A stretch of DNA of 64,000 nucleotides, from assembly GCF_048403405.1 (NCBI RefSeq), contig NZ_CP183129.1. One strand, written 5' to 3'. Position numbers and translations under genes: made by a program. This document shows, piece by piece, positions 21,029-25,735 of this stretch. Under the pieces are notes generated by a model. It did not search any database. It saw nothing but the letters and a program-made list of their open reading frames with translations, and was not told where the DNA came from. The DNA is from Escherichia coli. Its GTDB lineage: Bacteria; Pseudomonadota; Gammaproteobacteria; Enterobacterales; Enterobacteriaceae. The stretch's first letter is position 1. Every line of letters starts with the position of its first letter.

Positions 21029-21733
21029 ATGCGCCTGGTTCAGCTTTCTCGCCATTCAATAGCCTTCCCTTCCCCGGAAGGCGCATTACGTGAGCCTAAC
21101 GGCCTGCTGGCACTTGGGGGCGATCTTAGCCCTGCACGCCTGTTAATGGCTTACCAGCGTGGTATTTTTCCGTGGTTTTCTCCCGGCGACCCCATCCTCT
21201 GGTGGTCGCCCGATCCCCGCGCGGTGCTTTGGCCTGAATCACTGCATATCAGCCGTAGTATGAAGCGATTTCATAAACGCTCGCCCTATCGTGTCACGAT
21301 GAATTACGCTTTTGGTCAGGTCATTGAAGGCTGTGCCAGCGATCGCGAAGAAGGAACCTGGATCACGCGTGGCGTGGTCGAAGCCTACCATCGCCTTCAC
21401 GAACTCGGTCATGCCCACTCCATTGAAGTCTGGCGTGAAGATGAGCTTGTCGGCGGTATGTACGGCGTGGCCCAGGGAACGCTATTTTGTGGTGAGTCCA
21501 TGTTCAGCCGGATGGAAAATGCGTCTAAAACGGCGCTTCTGGTATTCTGTGAGGAATTTATTGGTCATGGCGGTAAGCTTATCGACTGCCAGGTACTTAA
21601 CGATCACACAGCGTCGCTTGGTGCCTGCGAAATTCCCCGCCGGGATTACCTCAATTATCTCAATCAAATGCGCCTCGGACGATTGCCGAATAATTTCTGG
21701 GTACCACGGTGCTTGTTTTCACCACAAGAATGA
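21029..21733 (+). CDS. aat: Leucyl/phenylalanyl-tRNA-protein transferase
   Basis: 234 aa; synteny cydC-aat-infA. Confidence 0.93.
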
Positions 21734-22014
21734 ATGTTTTCGGCACATTTCTCCCCAGAGTGTTATAATTGCGGTCGCAGAGTTGGTTACGCTCATTACC
21801 CCGCTGCCGATAAGGAATTTTTCGCGTCAGGTAACGCCCATCGTTTATCTCACCGCTCCCTTATACGTTGCGCTTTTGGTGCGGCTTAGCCGTGTGTTTT
21901 CGGAGTAATGTGCCGAACCTGTTTGTTGCGATTTAGCGCGCAAATCTTTACTTATTTACAGAACTTCGGCATTATCTTGCCGGTTCAAATTACGGTAGTG
22001 ATACCCCAGAGGAT

Positions 22015-22236
<222 letters not shown>

Positions 22237-22489
22237 TTGTTTTACCGCCTGATGGGCGAAGAGAAAGAACGAGTAAAAGGTCGGTTTAGCCGGCCTTTTT
22301 ATTTTGTGATATGTATGAAGTACTTTGGAAGTATAAATCCATAACTTGTCTCGATGTAGATATACTGCACAACTTGTTTACAGTATGAGCAAACAATAAT
22401 TATCATTAAAATTCTTCTTGACCGTTTTACTCCAACTCCCTATAGTAGCGCCCCGTTGCCACCCATGAGGTTTGGCAGCAAAACAATTT

Positions 22490-22577
22490 GGTGAGGTGTC
22501 CGAGTGGCTGAAGGAGCACGCCTGGAAAGTGTGTATACGGCAACGTATCGGGGGTTCGAATCCCCCCCTCACCGCCA
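22490..22577 (+). tRNA. serW: tRNA-Ser (anticodon GGA)
   Basis: 88-nt sequence GGTGAGGTGTCCGAGTGGCTGAAGG...GGTTCGAATCCCCCCCTCACCGCCA with D-loop, long variable arm, T-loop GGTTCGAAT and an anticodon loop containing GGA. Confidence 0.93.
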
Positions 22578-23160
22578 TATTTAAAGAAAAGCTCGTACGA
22601 AAGTGCGAGCTTTTTTTTTCGCATATTGCACTCCAGGGGGGATGAGAAGCCCCGACCGGGGTTCGACAACTGGCGCAGCCAGTTGGACAGACCACGAACA
22701 CAGTGAGTGGGCTGCCCGCAGGGCGAGCGAAGCGAGTCAATCCCCCCCTCACCGCCATATTCAAAGAAGAGCTCGTACGAAAGTGCGAGCTTTTTTTTCG
22801 CATATTGCACTCCAGGGGGGATGAGAAGCCCCGACCGGGGTTCGACAACTGGCGCAGCCAGTTGGACAGACCACGAACACAGTGAGTGGGCTGCCCGCAG
22901 GGCGAGCGAAGCGAGTCTATCCCCCCCTCACCGCCATATTTAAAGAAAAGCTCGTACGAAAGTGCGAGCTTTTTTTTCGCATATTGCACTCCAGGGGGGA
23001 TGAGAAGCCCCGACCGGGGTTCGACAACTGGCGCAGCCAGTTGGACAGACCACGAACGCAGTGAGTGGGCTGCCCGCAGGGCGAGCGAAGCGAGTCTATC
23101 CCCCCCTCACCGCCATATTCAAAGAAGAGCTCGTACGAAAGTACGAGTTTTTTTTCGCAT
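22561..23160 (+). repeat. Tandem array of about 179-bp units, each ending in a copy of the serW 3' end
   Basis: The 17-mer tccccccctcaccgcca recurs at 22561, 22741, 22920 and 23099 (period 179-180); units are near-identical and alternate between two variants (tatttaaagaaaag / tattcaaagaagag); each carries the terminator hairpin. Confidence 0.85.
22587..22619 (+). terminator. Rho-independent terminator after serW
   Basis: Hairpin GCTCGTAC-gaaa-GTGCGAGC followed by nine T; the same hairpin recurs in every downstream repeat unit. Confidence 0.7.
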
Positions 23161-23458
23161 TTTATCTGCCTGTACGGCAGTAAACGGTATAAAAATCGGG
23201 TTTTTCTTTCGGCTGGCTTTCTAAGCTGCCTGTACGGCAGTGAACTCAAATACTACACGTCTAGCCCGTTGTTAATAAAGCAAAACCATCTCATTTTCCT
23301 GCTACCACCCTTTTTTATCCTTACCTTCCCGCAGCACTAATTATCAACAACTTACCATCATCATCAAAAAAAGGGTCTGAACCTCCTCCACCCCATAAAC
23401 AAAAAGTCCGTAACCTCTTTCGAGATTACGGACTTCACCAACCTACCTAACAATTAGA

Positions 23459-25735
23459 TTAATGCGCTGCTTCCGCCTTGTGCTTTTGTGCACTCTGGAA
23501 TCCATAAGTCAGCTCATTTTTCTCTTTATCCAGCGCAACCGTCACCTGACCGCCGTCCACCAGCGAACCAAACAACAGTTCGTTGGCGAGCGGTTTTTTC
23601 AGGTTGTCCTGGATGACACGCGCCATCGGACGTGCGCCCATTGCCCGGTCGTAACCTTTCTCGGCCAGCCAGTTACGCGCTTCCTGGCTCACTTCCAGAG
23701 AAACACCTTTCTGATCCAACTGAACCTGCAACTCGACGATGAATTTATCCACTACCTGATGGATCACGTCGGTTGACAGATGATCGAACCAGATAATGTT
23801 GTCGAGACGGTTACGAAACTCCGGCGTAAAGATCTTCTTGATCTCTTCCATCGCATCGGTGCTGTTGTCCTGGTGGATAAGACCAATCGATTTACGCTCA
23901 GTTTCTCGTACCCCAGCGTTGGTGGTCATCACCAATACCACGTTACGGAAGTCCGCTTTGCGTCCGTTGTTATCGGTCAGCGTACCGTTGTCCATCACCT
24001 GCAACAGAATATTGAACACGTCCGGGTGCGCTTTCTCGATTTCGTCCAGCAGCAGCACCGCATGTGGATGCTTGATGACCGCATCAGTCAGCAAACCGCC
24101 CTGATCAAAACCAACGTATCCCGGAGGCGCACCAATCAGACGGCTGACGGTATGGCGTTCCATATACTCGGACATATCAAAGCGCAGAAGCTCAATGCCC
24201 AAAGCTTTCGAAAGCTGTACCGTCACCTCTGTTTTCCCGACCCCGGTAGGGCCGGCAAACAGGAACGAACCGACCGGTTTATGTTCGTGACCTAAACCTG
24301 CACGCGCCATCTTAATGGCTTCAGTCAGCGCCTCGATGGCTTTATCCTGACCGAAGACCAGCATTTTCAGGCGATCGCCGAGGTTTTTCAGGGTATCGCG
24401 GTCACTCTGAGAAACACTCTTCTCTGGAATGCGCGCAATACGGGCCACCACGGACTCAATATCCGCCACATTAACGGTTTTCTTGCGTTTGCTTACCGGC
24501 ATCAGGCGTGCGCGAGCGCCCGCTTCGTCGATAACGTCAATGGCTTTATCCGGCAGATGACGATCGTTAATGTATTTCACCGCCAGCTCTACCGCTGCAC
24601 GCACCGCTTTTGCGGTATAACGCACGTCGTGGTGCGCTTCATACTTCGGTTTCAGGCCATTGATGATTTGAACAGTTTCTTCGATCGACGGTTCAGTAAT
24701 ATCAATTTTCTGGAAGCGACGCGCCAGAGCACGGTCTTTCTCGAAAATGTTGCTGAACTCCTGATAGGTTGTCGAACCAATTACGCGAATTTTACCGCTG
24801 GAGAGCAACGGTTTGATTAGGTTAGCCGCATCGACCTGACCACCAGACGCTGCACCCGCACCGATAATGGTGTGGATCTCATCAATAAACAGGATGCTGT
24901 TAGTGTCCTGCTCCAGCTGCTTGAGCAACGCTTTAAAACGTTTTTCAAAGTCGCCGCGATATTTTGTGCCCGCTAACAGAGAACCGATATCGAGAGAGTA
25001 AATCGTACAGTCAGCCATCACTTCCGGCACATCGCCCTGAACAATTCGCCAGGCAAGACCTTCTGCAATCGCGGTTTTACCGACACCAGATTCCCCCACC
25101 AGCAGCGGGTTGTTTTTACGGCGACGGCAGAGAACCTGAATAGCACGCTCCAGCTCCTTCTCACGACCAATCAGTGGGTCGATTCCGCCCACGCGCGCAA
25201 GCTGATTCAGGTTCGTCGTGAAATTCTCCATACGTTCCTCCCCACCAGCTTGTTCTTCGCTGTTTGGCTGGCTGCCAGGATCAGAAGACTGTGTCGGCTC
25301 GTCTTTACGCGTGCCATGAGAGATAAAGTTCACCACATCGAGACGGCTGACTTCATGTTTACGCAACAGATATGCCGCCTGCGACTCCTGTTCGCTAAAG
25401 ATAGCGACCAGAACGTTTGCACCGGTAACCTCATTGCGACCGGAGGACTGGACATGGAAGACCGCACGTTGCAGTACACGCTGAAAACTCAGCGTTGGCT
25501 GTGTGTCGCGCTCCTCTTCACTGGCAGGCAGAACGGGTGTGGTTTGTTCAATAAAGGCTTCCAGTTCCTGACGGAGCGCAACCAAATCCACAGAACACGC
25601 TTCCAGCGCCTCCCGGGCAGATGGGTTACTGAGCAGCGCCAGTAACAAGTGCTCGACGGTCATAAACTCATGACGGTGCTCGCGCGCTCTGGCGAAAGCC
25701 ATATTTAAACTGAGTTCCAGTTCTTGATTGAGCAT
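23459..25735 (-). CDS. clpA: ATP-dependent Clp protease ATP-binding subunit ClpA
   Basis: Start moved to [17 protein letters not shown]... (758 aa); two AAA+ modules (GESGVGKT and GPTGVGKT). Confidence 0.95.

What the first reader, a model, noticed from the sequence alone, without database searches (positions are those of the whole stretch)
23160..23250. Pair of identical short hairpins between the repeat array and the clpA 3' end
ctgcctgtacggcag (arms ctgcc/ggcag, 5-nt loop) occurs twice about 60 bp apart (near 23166 and 23227), just beyond where the tandem array decays. They could be protein-binding sites, RNA processing sites or the edge of the ancestral unit.
Basis: seen in the sequence. 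Interest (0 to 1): 0.25.

Follow-up and report, generated by a model that had tools for sequence, protein, structure and literature searches.

The report
Orphan type I-F CRISPR mini-array
The two identical "hairpins" are the cores of two CRISPR repeats flanking a single 32-base spacer: the well-known cas-less type I-F mini-array that E. coli carries between clpA and serW, whose spacer is copied from a CRISPR gene (csy3). It is real but already described.

Summary
CTGCCTGTACGGCAG occurs exactly twice, at 23166-23180 and 23226-23240, against 0.13 expected by chance.

Read on the minus strand, the two copies are the stem-loops of two 28-bp type I-F CRISPR repeats. One matches Rfam CRISPR-DR4 at 50.1 bits; the other is a degenerate terminal repeat. 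A single 32-bp spacer separates them, giving the 60-bp period (28 + 32).

This is the orphan E. coli array named CRISPR4.1-2 (Almendros/Mojica) or cas-less CRISPR3 (Touchon and Rocha 2010). It lies between clpA and serW, and the window has no cas-F genes.

The spacer matches csy3 (Cas7f) of the E. coli I-F operon, directly after a CC PAM. That fits the published "anti-cas" pattern, which I reproduced in five other strains whose spacers match cas1f, cas3f or csy3, all with CC.

The window's copy is slightly decayed. It has two extra substitutions, one at spacer position 5 (which I take from memory to lie in the seed), plus one change in the terminal repeat.

The array is unrelated to the neighbouring RtT tandem repeats, because K-12 has it without them.

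Verdict: already known, low interest.

The parts
23218..23245 (-). Leader-proximal CRISPR repeat R1, GTTCACTGCCGTACAGGCAGCTTAGAAA.
   Evidence: Rfam CRISPR-DR4 RF01317, 50.1 bits (gathering 35), E 3.3e-10, 27/28 to the consensus. It is identical to the repeats of the arrays flanking cas1f-cas6f in strains 504211 and MS7163.
23186..23217 (-). Single 32-nt spacer, GCCAGCCGAAAGAAAAACCCGATTTTTATACC; an anti-csy3 spacer in a mutated variant.
   Evidence: It matches the sense strand of csy3 directly after a CC PAM. There are 4 mismatches to each of the two E. coli csy3 alleles; the common variant of the spacer has 2. The exact window variant is in only 12 of 5426 genomes.
23158..23185 (-). Degenerate terminal (leader-distal) repeat R2, GTTTACTGCCGTACAGGCAGATAAAATG.
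   Evidence: Rfam CRISPR-DR4, 26.4 bits, below gathering. It shares 22/28 positions with R1, with the 3' third diverged. The same ...GATAAAATG terminal repeat occurs in all cas-less strains sampled that keep one (K-12 and S42 carry a G>A stem variant of it). The window copy has an extra C4>T change.
23246..23402 (-). CRISPR leader: about 157 bp, 41% G+C, between the clpA terminator and R1.
   Evidence: The stretch from the clpA stop to R1 is 208/215 identical to that of K-12 and also to that of the cas-F-bearing strain 504211. G+C 0.41.
23340..23367 (-). Sigma-70 promoter-like site in the leader (TTGATG-16-GATAAT), pointing into the array.
   Evidence: Consensus scan only, 9/12 matches. The -10 GATAAT is conserved in K-12 and L002. 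Function was not shown here.
23403..23436 (-). clpA intrinsic terminator, the upstream boundary of the leader.
   Evidence: 15-bp stem followed by a T-run. The clpA ORF ends at 23459.
23122..23155 (+). Terminator hairpin of the last serW/RtT unit, which abuts the terminal repeat. It marks the boundary and is not part of the array.
   Evidence: Terminator-like site. The same terminator abuts the terminal repeat in K-12, which lacks RtT units.

Best explanation
The two hairpins are the stem-loops of a minimal orphan type I-F CRISPR array on the minus strand, in the same direction as clpA. Its layout is leader (23402..23246), repeat 1 (23245..23218), one 32-nt spacer (23217..23186) and a degenerate terminal repeat (23185..23158). 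It is the E. coli clpA-infA array called CRISPR4.1-2, or cas-less CRISPR3.

The spacer was copied from csy3 (Cas7f) of the cognate I-F cas operon, next to a CC PAM.

Inferred mechanism, following published work on other strains: the array is transcribed from its leader. With no Cas6f in the cell the transcript stays unprocessed and inert. If a I-F cas operon enters the cell, Cas6f would cut at the 3' base of each hairpin. That would release one crRNA (CUUAGAAA + spacer + GUUUACUGCCGUACAGGCAG), and the incoming Csy complex would be guided against its own csy3 gene, destroying or destabilising the incoming system (an 'anti-cas' guard).

In this strain the guard is probably weakened. The spacer has 4 mismatches to known csy3 alleles, including position 5, which I take from memory to lie in the seed. 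Priming is therefore more likely than direct interference.

Identity is shown here. Transcription, processing and interference are inferred.
For: - **Repeat identity:** Rfam CRISPR-DR4, 50.1 bits, E 3.3e-10 for R1 and 26.4 bits for R2. The period is 60 = 28 + 32.
- **Link to cas-F:** the same repeat forms the long arrays flanking cas1f-cas3f-csy1-csy2-csy3-cas6f at this very locus in strains 504211 and MS7163.
- **Leader:** conserved with those strains, 208/215.
- **Variable spacer content:** 0, 1 or 2 spacers of different sequence at the same site in other strains.
- **Spacer target:** the spacer matches csy3 with a 5'-CC PAM. That PAM is as defined for E. coli I-F in PMC3506596.
- **Anti-cas pattern reproduced:** spacers of other cas-less strains match cas1f (O157:H7), cas3f (32/32 in AVS0093 and DETEC-E1005; GPEC206-621) or csy3 (266917_2), all with CC.
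- **No cas-F in the window:** tblastn and blastn both empty; RefSeq annotation of the identical genome shows none.
- **Near-exclusive distribution:** 654 genomes hold a match to the spacer, in only 657 places in all. Roughly 415 of these matches are array copies and about 240 are csy3 genes.
- **Literature:** locus and nomenclature in PMC3903273; the anti-CRISPR hypothesis in PMC2886076; a csy3-matching spacer already listed in PMC12736100. Almendros 2016, as summarised in PMC8616872, reported that orphan arrays are constitutively expressed, interfere with cas-F plasmids and drive priming.
Against: - No expression or processing data exist for this strain.
- The window spacer carries derived substitutions A5>G and T19>C, on top of two synonymous differences to each csy3 allele. 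The terminal repeat has C4>T.
- An intermediate with A5>G only exists in strain ETEC6334, so the changes look like neutral stepwise decay.
- Leader divergence between strains (3-10%) greatly exceeds that of the clpA 3' end (0.7%, measured against L003 only). By that yardstick, 2/32 changes in the spacer show no purifying selection.
- Whether GN02461-like genomes carry cas-F elsewhere could not be checked directly.
Confidence: 0.85

Rival explanations
1. Same identity (an orphan I-F array), but in this lineage it is only a decaying fossil with no present function. It would be what remains after cas-F loss and would now drift neutrally.
For: - Substitutions accumulated stepwise: common variant, then A5>G (ETEC6334), then A5>G + T19>C + terminal-repeat C4>T (window).
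- T19>C would be a Leu>Pro change if read as csy3, so it was not copied from a real allele.
- Position 5 is mismatched to both csy3 alleles; I take it from memory to be a seed position.
- Some strains are down to a single repeat, e.g. AREA_492.
- The spacer's divergence is no lower than that of the leader.
Against: - Six of the seven distinct spacers sampled from cas-less strains target cas-F genes with the correct PAM. That is hard to explain by drift alone.
- Published experiments on other strains show such arrays are expressed and active once cas-F is supplied (PMC8616872).
- Mismatched spacers can still prime in I-F systems (PMC4117759).
Confidence: 0.35
2. The hairpins are cas-independent cis elements, for example binding sites for a host regulator or bidirectional terminator/insulator hairpins between the convergent serW-RtT and clpA transcription units.
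For: They sit between two convergent transcription units. Each forms a stable small hairpin on either strand.
Against: - Both flanking units already have strong intrinsic terminators.
- The hairpins lack T-runs.
- The full 28-bp unit, not just the hairpin, matches a CRISPR repeat family.
- The number of units varies from 1 to 3 between strains, and the intervening sequence is replaced wholesale, as in CRISPR arrays.
Confidence: 0.03
3. The hairpins are the degenerate edge of the serW-linked RtT tandem repeat.
For: They begin a few bases after the last RtT unit's terminator.
Against: - K-12, O157:H7, S42, AVS0093 and others have the array directly after the serW terminator with no RtT unit.
- The 15-mer does not occur inside the RtT units.
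Confidence: 0.01

Closest known systems
E. coli orphan CRISPR4.1-2 array, also called cas-less CRISPR3 or 'anti-CRISPR / anti-cas' array (Diez-Villasenor 2010; Touchon & Rocha 2010, PMC2886076; Almendros 2014, PMC3903273; Almendros 2016 Nat Microbiol)
   Same: Same locus (clpA-serW-infA), same 28-bp repeat, same ...GATAAAATG terminal repeat and same leader. It has one or two spacers that match I-F cas genes with a CC PAM, and no cas-F genes. A csy3-matching spacer is already listed in PMC12736100.
   Different: Only point changes: spacer A5>G and T19>C, and terminal-repeat C4>T. This exact spacer variant is in 12 of 5426 complete genomes.
Complete type I-F CRISPR-Cas loci of E. coli (e.g. LF82, ED1a, strains 504211 and MS7163), Yersinia pestis and Pseudomonas aeruginosa
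   Same: Repeat sequence and hairpin, 32-nt spacers, 60-bp period, leader, and the GG/CC PAM.
   Different: Those loci have cas1f-cas3f-csy1-csy2-csy3-cas6f and two arrays of many plasmid- or phage-derived spacers. Here there are no cas genes and a single self-system-derived spacer.
RtT / tRNA-linked repeats (Rfam RF00391), the neighbouring tandem array
   Same: Adjacent position downstream of serW.
   Different: Unrelated sequence: 179-bp units that carry the tRNA 3' end and a terminator. Their number varies independently of the CRISPR array.

Membership tests
CRISPR array, type I-F repeat family (Rfam CRISPR-DR4 / 'CRISPR4' repeats) | 28-bp repeat matching the family consensus, with the 5-bp stem and 5-nt loop | tested here: met
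   R1 scores 50.1 bits against a gathering score of 35, and is 27/28 to the consensus. Hairpin -8.6 kcal/mol. It is identical to repeats next to cas-F genes.
CRISPR array, type I-F repeat family (Rfam CRISPR-DR4 / 'CRISPR4' repeats) | Repeats separated by unique spacers of constant length (32 nt, period 60) | tested here: met
   Two repeats and one 32-nt spacer, period 60. This is the minimum possible array.
CRISPR array, type I-F repeat family (Rfam CRISPR-DR4 / 'CRISPR4' repeats) | Degenerate terminal repeat at the leader-distal end, and a conserved AT-rich leader at the other end | tested here: met
   R2 is diverged in its 3' third. The leader is 208/215 identical to that of the cas-bearing strain and of K-12, with 41% G+C.
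CRISPR array, type I-F repeat family (Rfam CRISPR-DR4 / 'CRISPR4' repeats) | Spacer content polymorphic between strains at the same locus | tested here: met
   Strains have 0, 1 or 2 spacers of different sequence in the same frame.
CRISPR array, type I-F repeat family (Rfam CRISPR-DR4 / 'CRISPR4' repeats) | Protospacer found elsewhere, with the subtype's PAM (GG on the target strand, i.e. CC 5' of the spacer-sense strand) | tested here: met
   The csy3 protospacer is preceded by CC in both alleles. The PAM definition is from PMC3506596.
Complete CRISPR-Cas I-F system | Adjacent cas1f, cas2-3f, csy1-3 and cas6f genes | tested here: not met
   No tblastn or blastn match to cas-F in the 64-kb window. 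Nothing is annotated between serW and clpA in the identical genome. Hence the array is an orphan, not a complete system.
Anti-cas orphan CRISPR4 array (Almendros 2016) | Array in a cas-F-less genome whose spacer targets a cas-F gene with a functional PAM | tested here: met
   Caveat: the match is 28/32 to each of the two csy3 alleles, mismatched at positions 5, 19, 26, 29 (L002) or 2, 5, 19, 23 (L004).
Anti-cas orphan CRISPR4 array (Almendros 2016) | Constitutive transcription of the array, and interference or priming against incoming cas-F DNA | not testable with these tools
   Only a promoter-like consensus match in the leader. The experimental evidence comes from other strains, via the review PMC8616872.

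The most novel reading that the evidence does not exclude
The lineage-specific decay of the spacer (A5>G at a position I take to be in the seed, T19>C) and of the terminal repeat (C4>T) may have disabled direct anti-cas interference. This lineage, 12 of 5426 genomes, would then again be permissive to acquiring a type I-F system, or would respond only by priming. A less likely alternative is that the retained, expressed mini-array has a cas-independent role.
Probability: 0.3. Interest if true: 0.2.

Novelty: already known. Interest (0 to 1): 0.1.

Why it matters
It matters little as a discovery. The element, its locus, its nomenclature and its anti-cas role are all published, and a csy3-targeting spacer has already been listed.

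It is useful for annotation. RefSeq leaves this stretch blank in the identical genome, so a scan could mistake it for something new.

It also adds a small natural series. Three spacer variants (common, A5>G, and A5>G + T19C) could be used to test how many mismatches the anti-cas guard tolerates.

Tried and rejected
- **Phage protospacer:** searched 50,697 phage records for the spacer. Only partial matches appeared (at most 78% of the spacer, E >= 0.3), so no convincing target.
- **Plasmid protospacer:** searched 72,556 plasmid records. The only full-length match was one record 4.9 Mb long filed under plasmids, probably a mis-filed chromosome holding the array (I did not inspect it); the rest were partial or weak. 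So the target is the cas gene, not a known mobile element.
- **Dispersed repeat (REP-like):** rejected, since only two copies exist in the window at up to 2 mismatches.
- **Link to the RtT array:** rejected by comparison with K-12.
- **Small ORFs across the region** (e.g. 23065-23340 +, 22917-23249 -): they run through repeats and terminators and were not pursued as genes.
- **Almendros 2016 (PMID 27573106):** not held in the library. I relied on the summary in the review PMC8616872.
- **Failed or wasted calls:** script one search failed on a file name. Search searches were rejected for term format. The first K-12 fetch stopped short of the array.
- **Collection scans:** I did not run a genome contigs or metagenome scan for csy3 alleles in other species. 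The cost was not justified for a known element.

Full report
**Observation.** The 15-mer CTGCCTGTACGGCAG occurs exactly at 23166-23180 and 23226-23240 on the plus strand. There is no other copy in the window even allowing two mismatches, and shuffles give a mean of 0.13. The sequence context places the pair between the terminator of the last serW-linked repeat unit (stem 23122-23155) and the clpA terminator and stop codon (23436..23403; ORF end 23459).

**What it is.** A scan of 21500-24000 against Rfam gave a full-length match on the minus strand at 23245..23218 to CRISPR-DR4 (RF01317). The score was 50.1 bits against a gathering score of 35, E 3.3e-10, with 27/28 identity to GUUCACUGCCGcACAGGCAGCUUAGAAA. 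A weaker match to the same family (26.4 bits) lies at 23185..23158.

Read on the minus strand, the locus is:
- repeat 1: GTTCACTGCCGTACAGGCAGCTTAGAAA
- a 32-nt spacer: GCCAGCCGAAAGAAAAACCCGATTTTTATACC
- a terminal repeat: GTTTACTGCCGTACAGGCAGATAAAATG

The two units share 22/28 positions, with the differences concentrated in the 3' third of the leader-distal copy. That is the usual pattern for a degenerate terminal repeat.

**Context and relatives.** The window is E. coli, 100% identical to strain GN02461 over 22560-23480. The gene order is infA, serW, three RtT-like units, the array, then clpA and clpS.
- Strains 504211 and MS7163 have cas1f-cas3f-csy1-csy2-csy3-cas6f at the same place. The operon is flanked by long arrays of the identical repeat, which RefSeq annotates as CRISPR.
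- The stretch from the clpA stop to the first repeat is 208/215 identical between the window and the cas-bearing strain, and also between the window and K-12. This is the array's leader. It contains one promoter-like match pointing into the array (23367..23340).
- The window has no cas-F genes by tblastn or blastn.
- In other cas-less strains the same site holds one, two or three repeats with different spacers. K-12 MG1655 has two repeats and one spacer directly after the serW terminator, with no RtT unit. So the array is independent of the neighbouring tandem repeat.

**The spacer.**
- Against 5426 complete E. coli genomes, the spacer matched in 654. Twelve matches were exact and twelve had one mismatch.
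- The 90-95% band held 592 records. I estimate about 390 of these are array copies with two mismatches and the rest are csy3 hits. The estimate comes from the band counts combined with the csy3 census.
- About 240 genomes match inside csy3, the Cas7f gene of the I-F operon. That census found csy3 in 241 genomes, all chromosomal, in two allele groups of 39 and 201.
- There are only 657 places in 654 genomes. Array copies of the spacer and its csy3 target therefore almost never share a genome.
- The protospacer is on the csy3 sense strand, directly preceded by CC in both alleles. This is the E. coli I-F PAM: GG on the target strand at the leader-proximal end (PMC3506596).
- The common spacer variant differs from each csy3 allele at two positions, all synonymous: 26 and 29 in one allele, 2 and 23 in the other. 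It encodes the same RQPKEKLDFYT peptide.
- The window variant has two further, derived changes. A5>G is silent; T19>C would be Leu>Pro.
- Strain ETEC6334 carries the intermediate, A5>G only, with an unmutated terminal repeat.
- No convincing phage or plasmid protospacer exists.

**The anti-cas pattern reproduced.** I sampled further cas-less strains.
- The O157:H7 spacer matches cas1f; K-12 carries a one-base variant of that spacer (not itself searched).
- AVS0093 and DETEC-E1005 carry a spacer that matches cas3f 32/32.
- GPEC206-621 carries a different cas3f-matching spacer, duplicated in tandem.
- 266917_2 carries the common csy3-matching spacer.

Every cas-F match found is preceded by CC.

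**Comparison with the literature.**
- Almendros et al. 2014 (PMC3903273) describe the clpA-infA locus as CRISPR-III. A single cassette without cas genes is named CRISPR4.1-2. [quoted passage not shown]
- Touchon and Rocha 2010 (PMC2886076) found that the cas-less array, which they call CRISPR3, contains only spacers matching the cognate Ypest/I-F cas genes. They proposed it acts as an 'anti-CRISPR' that prevents acquisition of the system.
- A 2025 survey (PMC12736100) lists eight such spacers: two match cas1f, five cas3f and one csy3.
- The review PMC8616872 summarises Almendros et al. 2016. Native orphan arrays are constitutively expressed, interfere with plasmids carrying the I-F cas genes, and trigger primed adaptation.

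**How it most likely works.**
- Shown here: the identity of the array, its orphan status within the window, and a cas-derived spacer with the correct PAM.
- Inferred from the literature: transcription from the leader; no processing while Cas6f is absent; and, if a I-F operon arrives, cleavage at the base of each hairpin to give a single crRNA that guides the incoming Csy complex and Cas2-3 against csy3.
- Where Cas6f/Csy4 cuts, and the seed positions 1-5, 7 and 8, come from my general knowledge (Haurwitz 2010; Wiedenheft 2011). I did not test them.
- In this strain the spacer is mismatched at position 5 to both csy3 alleles, and additionally at position 2 to one of them. Direct interference is therefore probably weakened. 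Priming remains plausible, since I-F priming tolerates imperfect targets (PMC4117759).

The stepwise substitution series also bears on function. So does the fact that the leader differs between strains by 3-10%, while the clpA 3' end differs from strain 266917_2 (L003) by 0.7%. Both are compatible with neutral drift. I therefore give substantial weight, about one third, to the reading that in this lineage the array is a functionless relic.

**Verdict.** The feature is real and correctly located, but it is a well-described element. RefSeq leaves it unannotated in the identical genome, which explains why it looked unexplained. Novelty: already known. Interest: low.

Noticed in passing
window 22579-23157: Three tandem units of about 179 bp match Rfam RtT (RF00391) at 43.9-45.1 bits, around the gathering score of 45. 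Each unit ends with a copy of the serW 3' end and a terminator. K-12 has no such unit at serW. The identical RefSeq genome does not annotate them, while other genomes annotate 'RtT sRNA' here.
   Followed up: partly
L002 5576-5603 and L004 5581-5595 (cas3f-csy1 gap of cas-F-bearing strains): A lone CRISPR4 repeat-like hairpin (GTAAACTGCCGTACAGGCAGCT...) lies on the strand opposite to the cas genes. It sits just after the cas3f stop codon and is conserved in both cas-F allele groups. It could be a terminator or a Cas6f-related regulatory site. I did not investigate it.
   Followed up: no
L003 2135-3032 (strain 266917_2): A tyrosine recombinase/integrase gene follows two RtT units where serW is expected. 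This suggests a genomic island integrated at serW in that strain.
   Followed up: no
L010 (strain GPEC206-621), array between serW and clpA: The same 33-nt anti-cas3f spacer is present twice in tandem, and the last repeat is a full consensus repeat rather than the usual degenerate terminal repeat.
   Followed up: no
window 23246-23461 versus L003, L006, L009, L011, L002: The clpA-terminator/leader stretch differs by 3-10% between strains (22/215 against L003). The adjacent 1200 bp of clpA differs from L003 by 0.7%. This intergenic region is unusually variable, or it recombines.
   Followed up: partly
window 22378-22989 (-), 22886-23224 (+), 23065-23340 (+): Long mechanical ORFs of 91-203 aa run through the tRNA, the RtT units and the CRISPR repeats. 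They are artefacts of the repeats and are not annotated as genes in the identical RefSeq genome.
   Followed up: partly
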